A stretch of DNA of 37,292 nt from a virus (Duplodnaviria > Heunggongvirae > Uroviricota > Caudoviricetes): IMG/VR virus record IMGVR_UViG_2703718872_000034; one strand, given 5' to 3'. Below the pieces are notes generated by a model. It searched no databases. It saw nothing but the letters and a program-made list of their open reading frames with translations, and was not told the DNA's origin. The position numbers were made by a program, and so were the translations under genes. Below, one piece after another: positions 6,500-37,292 of this stretch. The first letter of the stretch is position 1; each line of letters opens with the position of its first letter.

Positions 6500-7051
6500 A
6501 TGATGATATTACAACCCATGGGACGAAAAGGTCGGGCACCCGCTCATGTCCGCGCATGGACACCTGAAGAAGATGCACTGCTGATTGCGCTTTATCCATC
6601 CACCCCGGTTAAGGATATTGCTGTCAGAGTAAAAAGAAGTTACTGGGGAGTATATAACCGGATTGTTTTATTACGCGGTACTTACCCGGAGTTGCTCAAA
6701 TGCAAACGTCCCAGATTTAAACATGATGAAGATAAATTTATCCGAAAAAATGCCAGAACAATGACCGGTAAGCAAATAGGAGAATATCTGGAGCGAGACC
6801 GGGATTCTGTCCACAATCGGGCGCGATATATTGGCGTAAGCATGAAAAAATACGGAGAATTACTGCCTTTTACCCGCATACCTGACGATGATGTTCATCT
6901 TATTCGTGAATTACGGGATGCTGAATCACCACGACGTCTTACCTTCCGGGAAATAGGCGAGAAATTTGAATTATCCGAGAGTACGGTGAATTTTATTTAT
7001 CACCATCGCCGGACTGCCGGGGATGTTGTATTACGGGAGTTAACGCCATGA
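6500..7051 (+). CDS. hypothetical protein with three internally repeated helix-turn-helix-like segments
   Basis: 183 aa; repeated segments PVKDIAVRVKRSYWGVYNRI / MTGKQIGEYLERDRDSVHNRARYIG / LTFREIGEKFELSESTVNFIYHHRR. Confidence 0.45.
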   Translation: MMILQPMGRKGRAPAHVRAWTPEEDALLIALYPSTPVKDIAVRVKRSYWGVYNRIVLLRGTYPELLKCKRPRFKHDEDKFIRKNARTMTGKQIGEYLERDRDSVHNRARYIGVSMKKYGELLPFTRIPDDDVHLIRELRDAESPRRLTFREIGEKFELSESTVNFIYHHRRTAGDVVLRELTP

Positions 7052-7380
7052 TAACGACCTTATTTGTTGAATCAGACGAACCTCTGGTATGTGCCGCCGG
7101 GATGCCGGTCTGTGGCGGAACCCTGACTGGGGTTTATTTCGGGGATTTGCGCGGTTATCCCTGGCATTCACTGAATGATGCTTTCCCGCCTGATATGGAG
7201 GCTGTTGTACTGATTGTTCAGTACGGTCACCGACAGGAGCTGCGCATCGGCCATATCGGGTATGAAGGTTTTTTTGTTGATGAAGAAACCGGAGCCTGCC
7301 TTGAAGATGAGGACGGACAGGTGACGCACTGGTGTCATATTTCGGCCTTACCGGAATTACAGGGGATACATAATGGATGA
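7048..7380 (+). CDS. hypothetical protein
   Basis: ORF overlapping previous stop by 4 nt. Confidence 0.4.
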   Translation: MITTLFVESDEPLVCAAGMPVCGGTLTGVYFGDLRGYPWHSLNDAFPPDMEAVVLIVQYGHRQELRIGHIGYEGFFVDEETGACLEDEDGQVTHWCHISALPELQGIHNG

Positions 7381-7513
7381 GCAAATTGTTGAATGTCCCA
7401 CCTGTGGAAATGAGGCTCCGGAGTATCTGAAAGAGTGCCCACATTGTGGTGAGGTAAAATGTAATCACTGCGATATGGGCGACGACACTGCATGTATGAA
7501 TTGTGAGGATTAA
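7373..7513 (+). CDS. small Cys-rich protein (46 aa) with four CxxC pairs, zinc-ribbon-like
   Basis: Not in ORF track (<60 aa); ATG at 7373 overlaps previous gene end; translation MDEQIVECPTCGNEAPEYLKECPHCGEVKCNHCDMGDDTACMNCED. Confidence 0.4.
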   Translation: MDEQIVECPTCGNEAPEYLKECPHCGEVKCNHCDMGDDTACMNCED

Positions 7514-7517
7514 TAAT

Positions 7518-7805
7518 ATGGAAAAAGAAATCAAATTTGCTCCTAAAGATATCGACGAAGAACTGGCTAAAATCGGCATGCTTGAACGTATGCGGGACAT
7601 TATCGAATATGCGATAAAAGAAAATCTTGCAGCCAGAGAAGCCCTTTTGATAATGGAGCGGGAGATTAACCTGATTAAGGATGCTGTATCTCTGGATAAT
7701 AAAATAGCCCGCGAGGAATACGTTCGCCGCAGGCTCGGTGTTGATGGTTCAGCAATTCTTACATCTGAACATTATGCAAAAATTTTTAATCTTTTTCAGC
7801 GGTAA
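7518..7805 (+). CDS. hypothetical helical protein
   Basis: ORF, ATG at 7518 just after previous stop; 3' end overlaps convergent minus-strand ORF. Confidence 0.4.
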   Translation: MEKEIKFAPKDIDEELAKIGMLERMRDIIEYAIKENLAAREALLIMEREINLIKDAVSLDNKIAREEYVRRRLGVDGSAILTSEHYAKIFNLFQR

Positions 7806-8025
7806 TCCCCATGCAGGCCCGGAGATTGTCGAAATGCCAGTCGGTATTAATATATGAGCCATCCTGGATCTCTTCTGCATTTTCCGGGGTAGAGTTTTTT
7901 TGAGCGAGATTGATAATATGTATTGCCTCCTCACGGGAAATAACCCCCTTATCGAACAGGGTTACCATAAGATTTCCAGCCATTGTGAATGCGGCAACAT
8001 CAAGGGCATTTTTTATATCTGACAT
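7786..8025 (-). CDS. hypothetical protein (79 aa) encoded antisense to the early operon
   Basis: Minus-strand ORF with AAGGAA RBS about 8 nt upstream of ATG; only minus-strand gene in the early region. Confidence 0.4.
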   Translation of the reverse strand: MSDIKNALDVAAFTMAGNLMVTLFDKGVISREEAIHIINLAQKNSTPENAEEIQDGSYINTDWHFDNLRACMGITAEKD

Positions 8026-8053
8026 AGATTTTTCCTTTTATGTTAATTGACAT

Positions 8054-8081
8054 GGCGGTGCGGTAACACCGCCCATTTTTT
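8054..8081 (+). terminator. intrinsic-terminator-like hairpin (GGCGGTG / CACCGCC, loop CGGTAA) followed by T6
   Basis: Perfect 7-bp GC-rich inverted repeat plus TTTTTT read directly from sequence, 15 bp upstream of the GemA-like start. Confidence 0.45.
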
Positions 8082-8095
8082 ATGGAGCCACGATA

Positions 8096-8608
8096 ATGAA
8101 TCGCGCTTCCCTGATTACCTTAATACATGTCGCAAAACGCGATCTACAGCTTGACCGGGAGACCTATACATCCGCGCTGCTGGCAGCCACCGGCAAAACC
8201 AGCTGCCGGGATATGTCACCGGATGAGTTATCCCGCGTGCTGGATGTTTTCAAAAAACGCGGTTTTAAAGTGCGTCAGAACCCGGTTAACCGGGCCTTAA
8301 AACCGGGTACAGTGACCGCTAAAATTCGCGCCATCTGGAAGGTGATGCACCGGCAGGGCTTTATCTCTGATGGTGCGGAAACCGCTCTTAACCGCTGGGT
8401 GAAATCGCAGACGGCCGCGCAGAACGGCGGCGAAGGTGTGGCAAACTGGCAGTGGCTGGAGCAACACCCCGCCCTGGCCTCAGATGTGCTGGAGCGTCTC
8501 AAGCGATGGCACCGCCGCAAAATGCTGGCCGCGATGGGAATGCCCGAACGCACGCTGATGGGGTATGACGCCGTTTGCAGGCAGTATGAAAAATCACTTC
8601 CCCGTTAA
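8096..8608 (+). CDS. GemA-like protein (Mu gp16 family)
   Basis: 170-aa ORF in the position of Mu gemA, before the Mor/C gene; GGAG RBS; family assignment by recall only. Confidence 0.55.
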   Translation: MNRASLITLIHVAKRDLQLDRETYTSALLAATGKTSCRDMSPDELSRVLDVFKKRGFKVRQNPVNRALKPGTVTAKIRAIWKVMHRQGFISDGAETALNRWVKSQTAAQNGGEGVANWQWLEQHPALASDVLERLKRWHRRKMLAAMGMPERTLMGYDAVCRQYEKSLPR

Positions 8609-11156: not shown

Positions 11157-11738
11157 ATGGATAAGCCAACGCGTGGCCGTGTACGCAAGGTGGACTTGCT
11201 CCCCGACAGCATCCGTAAGCCACTGCTGGAAATGCTGCGTGAAAAACGTCTGACGCAGGTCCAGATACGCGAGGAAATCAACCGTCTGATCCGTGAGGCG
11301 GGCCTGCCGGAAGAGCAGCAGCTTTCACCGGCGGCCATCAGCCGGGAAGCCTCCCGTAATGAGCTGATTGCCCGTAACCTGCGTGATTTACGCGAGCAGA
11401 CAAAAGCCATGATGGCCGAACTGGGGGACAAGCCGACCGGTGAAACCACTGCACTGATTCTGGAAATGTCCCGCGCCCTGATGTACCGCCGTCTGCGTGC
11501 CGCAACCGAATCCCTGAACAGTGACAGCGACGTGGATATGCGTCTTATTAAGGACATCCTCCTGTCAGCACAGCGTGCGGAAAGTGCCGCCGAGCGCAGC
11601 ATTAAGCGTGAAAAAGAAATCCGGGCCGCATTTGCTGAAGAGATGGCAAACGCGGTCACCGACGAGCTGCGCGGCGTGGACGGGATGAGTGAACAGCTTG
11701 AGTCCCGTATTAAGGGAATTCTGTTGGGTAAAGCCTGA
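11157..11738 (+). CDS. terminase small subunit-like protein (Mu gp27-like)
   Basis: 193 aa, highly charged, immediately upstream of large terminase with overlapping stop/start. Confidence 0.6.
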   Translation: MDKPTRGRVRKVDLLPDSIRKPLLEMLREKRLTQVQIREEINRLIREAGLPEEQQLSPAAISREASRNELIARNLRDLREQTKAMMAELGDKPTGETTALILEMSRALMYRRLRAATESLNSDSDVDMRLIKDILLSAQRAESAAERSIKREKEIRAAFAEEMANAVTDELRGVDGMSEQLESRIKGILLGKA

Positions 11739-36179: not shown

Positions 36180-36357
36180 GATCCTACCTTCACTGGATAA
36201 AAAGTCAATAAAATGATCATTTTATGATCGTTTTCACTCGCTAACTCTTCGTTTTCTTTAAGTAAATAATCACCTCCCTGAATCATTGTTGATGACTTTT
36301 CAATCTATTTGTTGTATCAATTAAACAAATCGAATCGATCGTTTTTGTCGATCGATT
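36180..36357. promoter_or_regulatory. com/mom upstream regulatory region with five GATC (Dam) sites and a perfect 9-bp inverted repeat AATCGATCG-N7-CGATCGATT
   Basis: GATC at 36180, 36215, 36226, 36337, 36350; palindrome at 36333..36357 about 45 bp upstream of com start; Mu mom is known to be controlled by Dam-methylated GATC sites upstream of its promoter. Confidence 0.5.
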
Positions 36358-36400
36358 GCATGAGAAAGGCATCAACAACAAAGCAGGAGGTTATGCGGCC

Positions 36401-36601
36401 ATGTATCGAAACATACGGTGCCGACACTGCAATAAGCTACTGGCACGGGCCAGTTTCAGTTATCTGGAAGTAAAATGTCCGCGCTGTAAAACCCTCAATC
36501 AAATCACATCTCCGAGCGCCACAGAGCACCCCACATACACAAGGAAATCCTGTCGTGGGGAACAGAAAGCAAGTCACATCCCGAATCATCAGCACGCCTG
36601 A
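36401..36601 (+). CDS. com: Com, zinc-finger translational activator of mom
   Basis: 66 aa from ATG 36401 with AGGAGG RBS; [27 protein letters not shown] closely resembles Mu Com; overlaps mom start. Confidence 0.8.
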
Positions 36602-37292
36602 ACTTATTCGCTATAACGACAATATCGTTGGTTATGGCTCCCGTGAGTTGCGGGTTGAGACAATAAGTTGCTGGCTGGCCAGACTGGTCATCGTCAATAA
36701 ACATTACAGCCACCGTTTCGTAAATAACTCCTACCTTCATCTGGGCATATTTTCAGAACGGGAACTTGTTGGCGTAATGCAATGGGGCTACGCCCTTAAC
36801 CCAAACAGTGGTGCACGCGTCGTAACGGGTACGCAGAACCGAGAATATATGGAGCTTAACCGGCTATGGCTGCATGACTGTATGCCGAGAAACTCCGAAT
36901 CAAGGGCAATCAGTTACGCGCTCAAGCTAATCAGACAGCTTTATCCGCAGGTACAGTGGGTTCAGTCGTTTGCAGATGAGCGTTGTGGCTGTCTTGGTGT
37001 CGTGTATCAGGCAAGCAATTTTGATTATGTAGGCAGCCATGAATCAACATTCTATGAACTTGATGGCGAGTGGTATCACGAGATTTGCAGGAATGCCATT
37101 AAACGAGGCGGACAACGAGGTGAACATCTGAGGGCTAATATCGACAGGGCCAGTGTTCATAAGTTCCGACAGTTTCGTTACATCCGGTTTCTGAACAAGA
37201 GGGCCAGAAAACGCCTCAACACAAAGCTATTCAAAGTCCAGCCTTACCCAAAACCACAAACTGTTAAAACCGGTTTGAAAGAGATTGGGTGA
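36555..37292 (+). CDS. mom: DNA modification protein Mom
   Basis: 245 aa from GTG at 36555 overlapping com 3' end, as in the Mu com-mom operon; position as last gene after gin; stop at window end. Confidence 0.75.

What the first reader, a model, noticed from the sequence alone, without database searches (positions are those of the whole stretch)
7373..7513. Unannotated 46-aa four-CxxC zinc-ribbon gene translationally coupled to the preceding gene
An ORF below the 60-aa track cutoff encodes CPTC, CPHC, CNHC and CMNC pairs in 46 residues and overlaps the upstream gene stop by 8 nt. Such tiny zinc-ribbon proteins in phage early regions are often regulators or inhibitors of host proteins and are systematically missed by annotation.
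Basis: seen in the sequence. Interest (0 to 1): 0.4.

Follow-up and report, generated by a model that had tools for sequence, protein, structure and literature searches.

The report
Missed phage Mu gp13 zinc mini-protein gene
The 46-codon ORF is a real gene under strong purifying selection, a short-headed copy of phage Mu gene 13 (function unknown) that genome annotation skips in this E. coli prophage; it encodes a tiny, very acidic protein with eight invariant cysteines that most likely hold two zinc ions.

Summary
ORF 7373-7513 (+) encodes 46 aa with four CxxC pairs. Its ATG overlaps the upstream stop by 8 nt (ATGGATGA), and an AGGGGA Shine-Dalgarno sits 6 nt upstream.

The window is a Mu-like prophage of E. 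coli STEC 2015C-3121, and RefSeq leaves this ORF unannotated. It is not a new gene family. It is the orthologue of phage Mu gp13 (Mup13, formerly E14; PHROG 5584, unknown function), with 92% identity over the Cys core and a different, shorter N-terminus.

It is clearly coding:
- pN/pS is 0.14 in this frame only.
- 35 of 37 third codon positions vary.
- All eight Cys codons switch between TGC and TGT but always remain Cys.
- All eight Cys plus D34 are invariant across 49 diverse relatives.

The family signature is C-x2-C-x9-20-C-x2-C-x4-C-x2-C-D-M-G-D-D-x2-C-x2-C. It has no Pfam or NCBIfam model and no solved or significant structural match. It occurs in early or accessory regions of several kinds of mobile elements.

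The protein is strongly acidic (net -10, pI 4.1), which argues against nucleic-acid binding. The most likely role, by inference only, is a two-zinc protein-binding accessory factor of the non-essential early region. Function remains untested.

Verdict: a new member of a known but uncharacterised kind, of modest interest.

The parts
7373..7513 (+). Coding sequence of the 46-aa, 8-Cys protein, the orthologue of phage Mu gp13 (Mup13/E14) with a short N-terminus
   Evidence: Searches give the ORF. One search gives 92% identity to Mu gp13 over residues 7-45. One search gives phrog_5584 at E=2.8e-27. One search gives pN/pS 0.14 in this frame.
7361..7366 (+). Shine-Dalgarno-like AGGGGA, 6 nt upstream of the ATG and inside the 3' end of the upstream gene
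   Evidence: Read. Purine-rich motifs lie 5-11 nt before the start in all other upstream contexts examined.
7373..7380 (+). 8-nt start/stop overlap ATGGATGA with the upstream gene, a putative translational coupling site
   Evidence: Equivalent overlaps occur in relatives: GTGAGTGA, GTGACTGA, ATGAATAA, ATGA, and 14 nt in Mu.
7394..7504 (+). Conserved 37-residue core, from the first Cys (C8) to the last (C44): C-x2-C-x10-C-x2-C-x4-C-x2-C-D-M-G-D-D-x2-C-x2-C
   Evidence: All 8 Cys and D34 are invariant in 49 sequences. Spacings x4 and x7 are fixed and the first loop varies from 9 to 20 residues. Cys codons switch between TGC and TGT.
7394..7447 (+). First two CxxC pairs (C8/C11, C22/C25), the zinc-ribbon-like half; the predicted beta-hairpin 19-21/28-30 carries C22-C25 at its tip
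   Evidence: Sub-threshold Pfam hits to Zn_Ribbon_1, Zn_ribbon_LapB and UPF0547 over residues 7-27. AF2 secondary structure.
7460..7504 (+). Second two CxxC pairs (C30/C33, C41/C44) flanking the family-specific CDMGDD motif
7048..7380 (+). Upstream 110-aa gene (phrog_6925, unknown function) whose stop lies inside the start of the small gene
7518..7805 (+). Downstream gp14-like gene (phrog_6075). Its ATG is 4 nt after the small gene's stop and its GAGGA Shine-Dalgarno (7505-7509) lies inside the small gene.

Best explanation
Shown:
- 7373-7513 is a genuine protein-coding gene, the orthologue of phage Mu gene 13.
- It lies in the semi-essential early region of a Mu-like prophage, between the gp12-like, HTH and 110-aa genes and the gp14-like, GemA and Mor genes.
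- It has no promoter-like site of its own. Its start codon overlaps the stop of the preceding gene behind a Shine-Dalgarno motif.

Inferred from anatomy:
- It is translated from the polycistronic early transcript by ribosomes coupled to, or re-initiating after, the upstream gene.
- The 46-residue product folds around two tetrahedral Zn(Cys)4 sites formed by the four invariant CxxC pairs. The likely split is C8/C11+C22/C25 as a zinc-ribbon-like knuckle pair and C30/C33+C41/C44 as a second site, although a cross-braced arrangement is not excluded.

Inferred function, which is the weakest step:
- The protein has a net charge near -10, only two lysines, and an invariant acidic CDMGDD loop. In relatives it is often followed by an acidic tail.
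- It therefore most likely acts stoichiometrically as a small protein-binding module. It would dock onto a basic surface of a host (or phage) protein early in lytic growth, as a dispensable host-takeover or counter-defence accessory factor. A nucleic-acid-binding regulator is less likely.
For: Gene reality:
- pN/pS is 0.14 in the ORF frame, against 0.30-2.1 in the other five frames. Variable sites by codon position are 18/13/35 of 37 codons.
- Window versus Mu core: 20 nt differences, with 15 codons changed synonymously and 3 non-synonymously.
- Each Cys codon switches between TGC and TGT.
- All 8 Cys and D34 are invariant in 49 sequences down to 42% identity.
- A profile search found 218 library representatives at E<=1e-3. 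At least 66 small proteins (100 aa or fewer) among those retrieved carry the full 8-Cys pattern.

Orthology and context:
- establish the match to Mu gp13 and the shared position.
- The core is 92% identical between Mu and this prophage. The neighbouring proteins are only 51% (gp12), 49% (gp14), 44% (GemA) and 27% (Mor) identical.

Expression signals:
- The start/stop overlap plus a Shine-Dalgarno motif is conserved behind six different upstream genes.
- No promoter-like or terminator-like site lies next to the ORF.

Fold:
- The AF2 model has mean pLDDT 82 and one beta-hairpin with C22-C25 at its tip.
- The first half resembles zinc-ribbon profiles.

Acidity:
- Net charge is -10 and pI 4.1. The family medians are -8 and pI 4.3.

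Accessory character:
- The slot is occupied by unrelated cassettes in sister prophages.
- Only 49 of 5426 complete E. coli genomes carry the gene.
- Distant relatives sit in arrays of small ORFs alongside orphan methyltransferases, RlaP, RadC, RdgC and DUF1173, in phages and other mobile elements.
- The Mu semi-essential early region still holds genetically defined functions (PMC4553209). That arm and cim have never been tied to a specific ORF is my own recollection and was not checked here.
Against: - No experiment or publication on gp13 function was found.
- Metal binding is inferred from the sequence pattern only.
- No interaction partner could be tested with these tools.
- The very high conservation could partly reflect how few free positions a 37-residue, 8-Cys domain has, rather than a conserved target.
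- The recurrent fusion to a ProQ C-terminal-like domain hints at an RNA-related context, which would not fit a pure protein-decoy model.
Confidence: 0.5

Rival explanations
1. It is a dedicated small subunit or regulatory partner of another phage early protein, such as the product of the gene it is coupled to or the gp14-like protein. Coupled translation would deliver it in fixed stoichiometry.
For: - The start/stop overlap with the upstream gene is conserved.
- In L016-L019 the core is fused in frame to the C-terminus of a ~230-aa upstream protein (phrog_6418).
- Other relatives carry the domain at the C-terminus of 100-316-aa proteins, including four with a ProQ_C-like domain.
- A gp14-like gene usually follows directly.
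Against: - The upstream partner differs in six lineages. The fusion partners are unrelated to each other and to the 110-aa protein here.
- gp14 is absent from many loci that keep the zinc gene (L016-19, L033-37, L039, L042-43).
- The core is far more conserved than any neighbour, which is unexpected if it co-evolved with a fast-diverging phage partner.
Confidence: 0.2
2. It is a nucleic-acid-binding zinc-finger regulator of phage gene expression. The model would be Mu Com (translational activator of mom) or the P2 Ogr class of late activators.
For: - Small Cys4 zinc fingers of phages often bind RNA, DNA or RNA polymerase (general knowledge; Com: PMC6483171, listed).
- The gene lies among regulators: an HTH protein at 6500-7051, GemA and Mor.
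- Some relatives are fused to a ProQ C-terminal-like domain.
Against: - Net charge is -10 with only two Lys and no Arg. The family median is -8, and only 4 of 66 small members are non-acidic.
- There is no meaningful similarity to the Com-like protein of the same prophage.
- No match to TraR/DksA-type or other regulator families appeared among the Pfam or NCBIfam hits listed.
Confidence: 0.15
3. The cysteines bind iron (rubredoxin-like Fe(Cys)4) or buffer or deliver metal, giving a redox or metal-handling function rather than a structural zinc scaffold.
For: - CxxC...CxxC pairs are also the rubredoxin signature.
- There is a sub-threshold hit to the LapB rubredoxin-type metal-binding domain and to rubrerythrin and nigerythrin C-terminal domains.
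Against: - All hits are below family cut-offs.
- No redox partner genes lie nearby.
- The aromatic core residues typical of rubredoxins are missing. This point is my own reading of the sequence and was not formally tested.
Confidence: 0.05
4. It is not an independent gene. It would be a chance ORF, the shadow of the long antisense ORF 7040-7600 (-), or a segment reached only by frameshifting from the upstream gene.
For: - The antisense frames across the core are mostly free of stops.
- The reading frame stays open for 16 codons upstream of the ATG.
- An in-frame fusion exists in L016-L019.
Against: - pN/pS is lowest by far in the sense frame, and third-position variation fits only that frame.
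- A start codon plus Shine-Dalgarno motif is conserved in every context.
- 0 of 200 shuffles give four CxxC.
- The early Mu annotation of antisense ORFs (E-82 in M64097) was dropped in the reference genome.
Confidence: 0.03

Closest known systems
Bacteriophage Mu gp13 (Mup13, NP_050617.1; formerly E14; also D108 gene 13, SfMu, and Yersinia Mu-like phages); PHROG phrog_5584
   Same: - 92% amino-acid identity over residues 7-45, with all eight Cys and the CDMGDD motif shared.
- Same position in the early operon, between the gp12 region and gp14, gemA and mor.
- The start overlaps the upstream gene's stop.
- Function is unknown in both.
   Different: - The N-terminal leader is 6 residues here against 20 in Mu (46 aa against 60 aa), because a mosaic junction lies inside the 5' end of the gene.
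- The upstream neighbour is a 110-aa phrog_6925 protein instead of gp12.
- This short allele is not called by PGAP, whereas the 60-aa allele is.
Generic zinc-ribbon and double zinc-ribbon domains (Pfam PF13240 Zn_Ribbon_1, PF12773 DZR, PF18073 Zn_ribbon_LapB; ribosomal bL32 and eL40)
   Same: Two CxxC knuckles separated by about 10 residues, with the second knuckle at the tip of a beta-hairpin. Weak profile similarity exists over residues 7-27.
   Different: - All scores are below the curated cut-offs (about 18 bits against 25 or more).
- The second half (KCxxCDMGDDxxCxxC, with fixed x4 and x7 spacing) is family-specific and unmatched.
- Only one hairpin is predicted.
Cross-braced two-zinc modules (AN1-type zinc finger, RING, PHD, FYVE)
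   Same: - Small domains binding two zinc ions through eight ligands.
- The ligand spacing of the first six ligands resembles the AN1 pattern (C-x2-C-x9-12-C-x1-2-C-x4-C-x2-H...). This pattern is recalled from memory and is a lead only.
- The best full-length Foldseek alignment is to the Cuz1 AN1 finger 5ij4, with TM 0.53 over 45 columns. An AN1-like giant-virus protein appears in BFVD.
   Different: - None of these matches is significant (E 0.4-1, probability 0.35 or less).
- No zf-AN1 or RING hit was found for this protein. One family member hit Prok-RING_2.
- All ligands here are Cys.
Mu Com, the other tiny zinc protein of the same phage (Com-like ORF at 36356-36601 here)
   Same: A Cys4 zinc protein of about 60 aa encoded by a Mu-type phage, whose gene overlaps its neighbour (PMC6483171).
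   Different: - Com has one zinc site, is basic and binds mom mRNA.
- gp13 has eight Cys and is strongly acidic.
- BLASTP finds only trivial CxxC matches.
Lar/Ral-type restriction-alleviation proteins (Pfam PF14354 Lar_restr_allev)
   Same: A small Cys-rich prophage-encoded accessory protein. There is a faint profile hit at E=0.28 over residues 19-45.
   Different: The score is 11.9 bits against a cut-off of 28.6, so it is not a member. No functional evidence exists.

Membership tests
Phage Mu gp13 family (PHROG phrog_5584) | Significant full-domain match to the family profile or to Mu gp13 | tested here: met
   phrog_5584 at E=2.8e-27, matching residues 7-45 to profile positions 20-58 of 60. 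tblastn to Mu gives 92% identity at E=5e-17.
Phage Mu gp13 family (PHROG phrog_5584) | Eight cysteines with spacing C-x2-C-x(9-20)-C-x2-C-x4-C-x2-C-x7-C-x2-C and the CDMGDD motif | tested here: met
   Invariant columns are C8, C11, C22, C25, C30, C33, D34, C41 and C44 in 49 sequences.
Phage Mu gp13 family (PHROG phrog_5584) | Conserved position in the Mu-type early operon upstream of gp14, gemA and mor | tested here: met
   The gene order gp12-like ... zinc gene, gp14-like, gp15-like (antisense), GemA, Mor is found in the window, in Mu and in most of the ~40 related viral loci.
Zinc ribbon (Pfam PF13240 / PF12773 and relatives) | Score at or above the Pfam gathering threshold | tested here: not met
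   Best scores are 18.2 bits against 25 (Zn_Ribbon_1), 17.9 against 25.7 (LapB) and 15 against 27.3 (DZR). Only 10 of 49 family members reach E<=0.01.
Zinc ribbon (Pfam PF13240 / PF12773 and relatives) | Two zinc knuckles contributed by beta-hairpins, forming a three-stranded sheet around one Zn | tested here: inconclusive
Zinc-binding protein (any class) | Stoichiometric metal binding by the cysteines | not testable with these tools
   Needs ICP-MS or a PAR assay on purified protein. Only the invariant Cys pattern supports it.
Translationally coupled gene pair | Start codon overlapping or abutting the upstream stop, with a Shine-Dalgarno motif inside the upstream gene | tested here: met
   ATGGATGA overlap with AGGGGA 6 nt upstream. 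The arrangement is conserved in six other contexts.
Translationally coupled gene pair | Downstream translation depends on translation of the upstream gene | not testable with these tools
   Needs reporter fusions with an upstream premature stop codon.
AN1 / RING-type cross-braced zinc fingers | Profile match, or a significant structural match with cross-braced ligand pairing | tested here: not met
   No zf-AN1 or RING profile hit for the window protein. Foldseek to 5ij4 gives E=0.72, probability 0.35.
Known anti-phage defence or annotated bacterial protein families (PADLOC, NCBIfam) | Any profile hit | tested here: not met
   PADLOC gave no hits. NCBIfam gave only a 14.9-bit hit against a cut-off of 130.

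The most novel reading that the evidence does not exclude
The gp13 family would be a widespread, so far unrecognised class of mobile-element mini-proteins: about 40-residue, two-zinc, strongly acidic domains with an invariant CDMGDD loop. They would neutralise a conserved host DNA-binding protein or defence nuclease, acting as a zinc-stabilised decoy or DNA mimic. In Mu this could correspond to one of the genetically defined early functions (arm or cim) that, to my recollection, have never been assigned to an ORF. The exceptional conservation of the core would then reflect a conserved host target: 92% identity across phages whose neighbouring proteins are only 27-51% identical.
Probability: 0.15. 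Interest if true: 0.6.

Novelty: new member of a known kind. Interest (0 to 1): 0.3.

Why it matters
Practical value:
- The finding documents a systematic annotation gap. The 46-aa allele of a conserved phage gene is skipped by PGAP in every RefSeq genome checked, while the 60-aa allele is called.
- No Pfam or NCBIfam model exists for the family. The alignment made here could seed one.

Biological value:
- Mu is a classic model phage, yet gene 13 is still a blank.
- It is the most conserved protein of an otherwise fast-diverging early region.
- Its domain recurs in early or leading regions of unrelated mobile elements, and in fusions.
- This makes it a cheap, well-defined candidate for screens for host-takeover or counter-defence factors.

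As it stands, this is a known uncharacterised gene, not a new kind of system.

Tried and rejected
- Sequence search of solved structures with the family profile. Only generic zinc-ribbon matches to the first half appeared, at E>=0.017.
- Pfam, NCBIfam and PADLOC. No family reached its threshold.
- Literature. Five full-text searches and four papers opened found nothing on Mu gp13/E14 function. Several hits were false (T7 gp13, JBD30 gp13 which is Gam, and 'phage mutagenesis').
- Species-representative genomes. Only one locus was found, in Buttiauxella, so genome-level taxonomic spread is poorly sampled. Viral contigs were more useful.
- Antisense ORFs 7335-7493 (-) and 7040-7600 (-) as the real gene. 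Rejected on pN/pS and codon-position pattern. Their openness is a by-product of the Cys-rich and Asp/Glu-rich sense codons.
- Ligand topology (sequential, cross-braced or nested). It could not be resolved, because model coordinates are not returned and the Cys are invariant, so they give no covariation. The predicted hairpin argues against a nested C22/C25+C30/C33 site, but this is inference only.
- Similarity to Com of the same prophage. None was found.

Full report
**1. The observation**

Reading the window directly confirms an ORF from ATG 7373 to TAA 7511-7513. It translates to MDEQIVECPTCGNEAPEYLKECPHCGEVKCNHCDMGDDTACMNCED: 46 residues, eight cysteines, arranged as CPTC, CPHC, CNHC and CMNC.

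The upstream ORF 7048-7380 ends with TGA at 7378-7380, so the two genes share the 8 nt ATGGATGA. An AGGGGA Shine-Dalgarno-like motif lies at 7361-7366, 6 nt before the ATG. The next gene starts at ATG 7518, 4 nt after the stop, and its own GAGGA (7505-7509) lies inside the small ORF.

Among 695 stop-free frames of 30 codons or more in the window, this is the only one with four CxxC. None of 200 shuffles of the window produced four CxxC within 46 residues.

**2. Where the window comes from, and whether the ORF is annotated**

The region is 100% identical to the chromosome of E. coli STEC strain 2015C-3121, NZ_CP027340.1. The annotation there shows a Mu-like prophage with this order:
- Mu transposase, the AAA ATPase B and Gam;
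- a DUF5420 protein and a Gp11-type protein;
- several hypothetical proteins;
- a gp16/GemA family protein, Mor and lysozyme;
- the late genes.

The window itself runs from the MuA gene to a Com-like and Mom-like pair at its right end.

In that RefSeq record nothing is annotated between the 110-aa gene and the gp14-like gene. The same gap is present in two other RefSeq genomes with this allele. So 'unannotated' is correct for this allele.

**3. What it is**

A tblastn search of phage records shows that the ORF is the counterpart of gene 13 of bacteriophage Mu. That gene is Mup13, NP_050617.1, 60 aa, 'previously called E14'. The match is 92% identical over residues 7-45. The same gene is present in D108, SfMu and Yersinia Mu-like phages.

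PHROGs places it in phrog_5584, function unknown, at E=2.8e-27. The family is therefore known and annotated in the reference phage, but uncharacterised.

What differs here is the head of the protein: 6 residues before the first Cys, against 20 in Mu. DNA alignment shows that mosaic junctions fall inside the 5' end of the gene. Many E. coli prophages stop matching the window at about 7364-7386.

At least seven N-terminal versions exist, each behind a different upstream gene. In nearly all of them the start codon overlaps or abuts the upstream stop and is preceded by a purine-rich motif. The overlaps are ATGGATGA, GTGAGTGA, GTGACTGA, ATGAATAA, ATGA, TAAATG, and 14 nt in Mu.

In four viral contigs (L016-L019) the core is instead fused in frame to the C-terminus of a ~230-aa upstream protein. 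That fusion corresponds to phrog_6418.

**4. Is it under selection as a protein?**

I extracted the 111-nt Cys core from 47 loci, which gave 22 distinct DNA sequences.
- Variable sites by codon position are 18/13/35 of 37 codons.
- Pooled pN/pS is 0.14 in the ORF frame, against 0.30 to 2.1 in the five other frames.
- Window versus Mu: 20 nucleotide differences, with 15 codons changed synonymously and 3 non-synonymously.
- Each of the eight Cys codons occurs as both TGC and TGT among homologues, while always encoding Cys.

The cysteines are conserved and synonymous change dominates. The antisense ORFs over this stretch (7335-7493 and 7040-7600, minus strand) stay open only because of the sense codon composition, and they fail the selection test.

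**5. The wider family**

A profile of 11 close relatives was searched against 1.84 billion cluster representatives. It returned 218 proteins at E<=1e-3. Of the proteins retrieved, at least 66 of 100 aa or fewer carry the full 8-Cys pattern. The remainder includes multi-repeat zinc-ribbon proteins that match only the first half.

In an alignment of 49 diverse members (identity to the query down to 42%), the invariant columns are exactly the eight Cys plus D34. G12, K29 and G36 are nearly invariant.

The signature is C-x2-C-G-x(9-20)-C-P-x-C-G-x2-K-C-x2-C-D-M-G-D-D-x2-C-x2-C. The x4 and x7 spacers are fixed and the first loop is variable. In some members that loop holds insertions of about 30 residues.

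No Pfam, NCBIfam or PADLOC model reaches threshold. All names attached by sources are 'hypothetical protein'.

**6. Genomic context**

In Mu-type phages the gene always lies between the gp12 region and gemA/mor, usually followed by a gp14-like gene.

The core is 92% identical between Mu and this prophage. The flanking proteins are only 51% (gp12), 49% (gp14), 44% (GemA) and 27% (Mor) identical. It is therefore the most conserved product of this region.

The gene is nevertheless dispensable at the population level:
- Sister prophages with near-identical left flanks carry unrelated cassettes in the same slot.
- Only 49 of 5426 complete E. coli genomes have the gene, 14 with this allele and 35 with the Mu-type allele.

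More distant members are not confined to Mu-like phages:
- One sits beside a Q-like antiterminator and an exonuclease (L044).
- Others lie in long one-directional arrays of small ORFs, with orphan DNA methyltransferases, RlaP and an HD domain (L063).
- Others lie with RadC, a resolvase and DUF4031 (L065).
- Others lie with RdgC, DUF3268, DUF1173 and an H-NS-like gene in a Thauera element (L061/L062).

These neighbourhoods are typical of early or establishment regions of mobile elements. That statement is an association, not a test.

Four relatives carry the domain at the C-terminus of a Phage_ProQ_C_like domain (PF24203). The score is 26.6 bits against a cut-off of 27, so the match is marginal.

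**7. Structure**

AlphaFold2 with the 49-sequence alignment gives mean pLDDT 82 and pTM 0.53. It predicts a single beta-hairpin (19-21/28-30) with the C22-P-H-C25-G knuckle at its tip.

Search results were as follows:
- Foldseek against PDB and BFVD found nothing better than E about 0.3-0.5.
- The non-significant top hits are small two-zinc or treble-clef modules: the AN1 finger 5ij4 at TM 0.53 over 45 columns, plus GATA, FYVE, RING and PHD.
- Sequence search of PDB chains gives only weak zinc-ribbon matches to residues 7-27, from bL32, eL40, RadA, LapB and rubrerythrin.

My reading is two Zn(Cys)4 sites. The first half is zinc-ribbon-like, which favours a C8/C11+C22/C25 site and a C30/C33+C41/C44 site.

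**8. How it most likely works**

Shown:
- It is a real, conserved, early-region gene.
- Its start overlaps the upstream stop.
- It has no promoter-like or terminator-like site of its own.

Inferred:
- It is made from the early polycistronic transcript by coupled translation.
- It folds around two zinc ions.

The protein has a net charge near -10 (pI 4.1), two Lys and no Arg. The family median is -8, often with an extra acidic tail. That composition argues against direct nucleic-acid binding. It favours a small protein-binding module that docks onto a basic surface.

The gene lies in Mu's semi-essential early region. [quoted passage not shown] My recollection, not checked here, is that arm and cim have never been tied to a specific ORF. 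Relatives sit in accessory or early regions of other elements.

I therefore favour a dispensable host-takeover or counter-defence factor that binds a host protein, at roughly 0.4-0.5. The rivals are:
- a subunit or partner of another phage early protein, suggested by the fusions and the coupling, at about 0.2;
- a nucleic-acid-binding regulator, suggested by the ProQ_C-like fusions and the regulatory neighbourhood, at about 0.15;
- a rubredoxin-like iron or metal-handling role, at about 0.05.

Non-coding or frameshift-only readings are effectively excluded.

**9. Comparison with known things, and novelty**

It is a member of the Mu gp13/PHROG 5584 family by sequence, motif and synteny. It is not a member of any curated zinc-ribbon, AN1, RING, Lar or Com family by the tests available.

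It is a new, short-headed allele of a known but functionally blank gene. The novelty class is therefore 'new member of a known kind'.

Points a specialist might find mildly notable:
- the systematic PGAP miss of the 46-aa allele;
- the absence of any Pfam or NCBIfam model for a well-defined 8-Cys domain;
- the outlier conservation of the core relative to its neighbours;
- the spread of the domain, and of its fusions, across unrelated mobile elements.

None of this yet gives a function. Interest is modest at 0.3.

Noticed in passing
window 7786-8025 (-), 7518-7805 (+), 8054-8073: A gp15-like gene lies antisense inside the early operon and overlaps the 3' end of the gp14-like gene by 20 nt, as Mup15 overlaps Mup14 in Mu. 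A G+C-rich terminator-like hairpin followed by a T run sits just before gemA. How convergent transcription is handled inside the early operon is unclear.
   Followed up: partly
window ~7364-8095; L056 2974-3285; L057 2975-4149: The slot between the 110-aa gene and gemA is a swap cassette in E. coli Mu-like prophages. This window has the zinc gene plus gp14-like and gp15-like genes. STEC1587 has a single 103-aa ORF, and STEC1585 has four other small ORFs. Of 233 E. coli records matching the 1.2-kb query, only 14 cover 80% or more of it. Many listed hits stop at query positions 465-487, which is window 7364-7386.
   Followed up: partly
L016-L019 (e.g. L017 3302-4126): In four viral contigs the 8-Cys core is fused in frame to the C-terminus of an unrelated ~230-aa upstream protein with no Pfam hit. 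This corresponds to phrog_6418. An internal GTG three codons before the first Cys could still give a free mini-protein.
   Followed up: partly
proteins P0029, P0051, P0086, P0093; L054 2685-3149: There is a recurrent architecture of an N-terminal Phage_ProQ_C_like domain (PF24203) followed by the 8-Cys domain at the C-terminus. The PF24203 score is 26.6 bits against a cut-off of 27. It occurs in a metagenomic phage contig full of small unknown ORFs.
   Followed up: partly
window 36356-36601 (+) and 36555-37292 (+): A Com-like zinc-finger ORF (…[10 protein letters not shown]…VKCPRCKT…) overlaps the start of a Mom-like ORF at the right end of the window. This is the Mu com/mom arrangement. The Mom-like ORF runs to the last base of the window.
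   Followed up: no
window ~11157-11738 (L001 12258-12839): RefSeq marks the Gp27-family gene of this prophage as a pseudogene with an internal stop. The prophage may therefore be defective for morphogenesis.
   Followed up: no
NZ_CP027586.1 3282459-3284436 (hit H5): In strain 2012EL-2448 the otherwise 99.9% identical region is split into two pieces by an IS1A insertion somewhere within the equivalent of window 6900-8100. The exact insertion point was not examined.
   Followed up: no
protein P0010 (metagenome), equivalent to window 7376 onward: One metagenomic variant starts at the overlapping ATG in the +1 frame (MSKLLNVPPVEMR…) and rejoins the family frame after the first CxxC. It therefore lacks the first Cys pair. 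It is probably a frameshifted or mis-sequenced copy.
   Followed up: no
L061/L062 (Thauera sp. 63 element), L063, L065: Distant homologues sit in long arrays of small same-strand ORFs. Their neighbours include RdgC, DUF3268, DUF1173, an H-NS-like protein, orphan Dam/N6-N4 methyltransferases, RlaP, an HD domain, RadC and DUF4031. These look like leading or establishment regions of mobile elements that are not Mu-like.
   Followed up: partly
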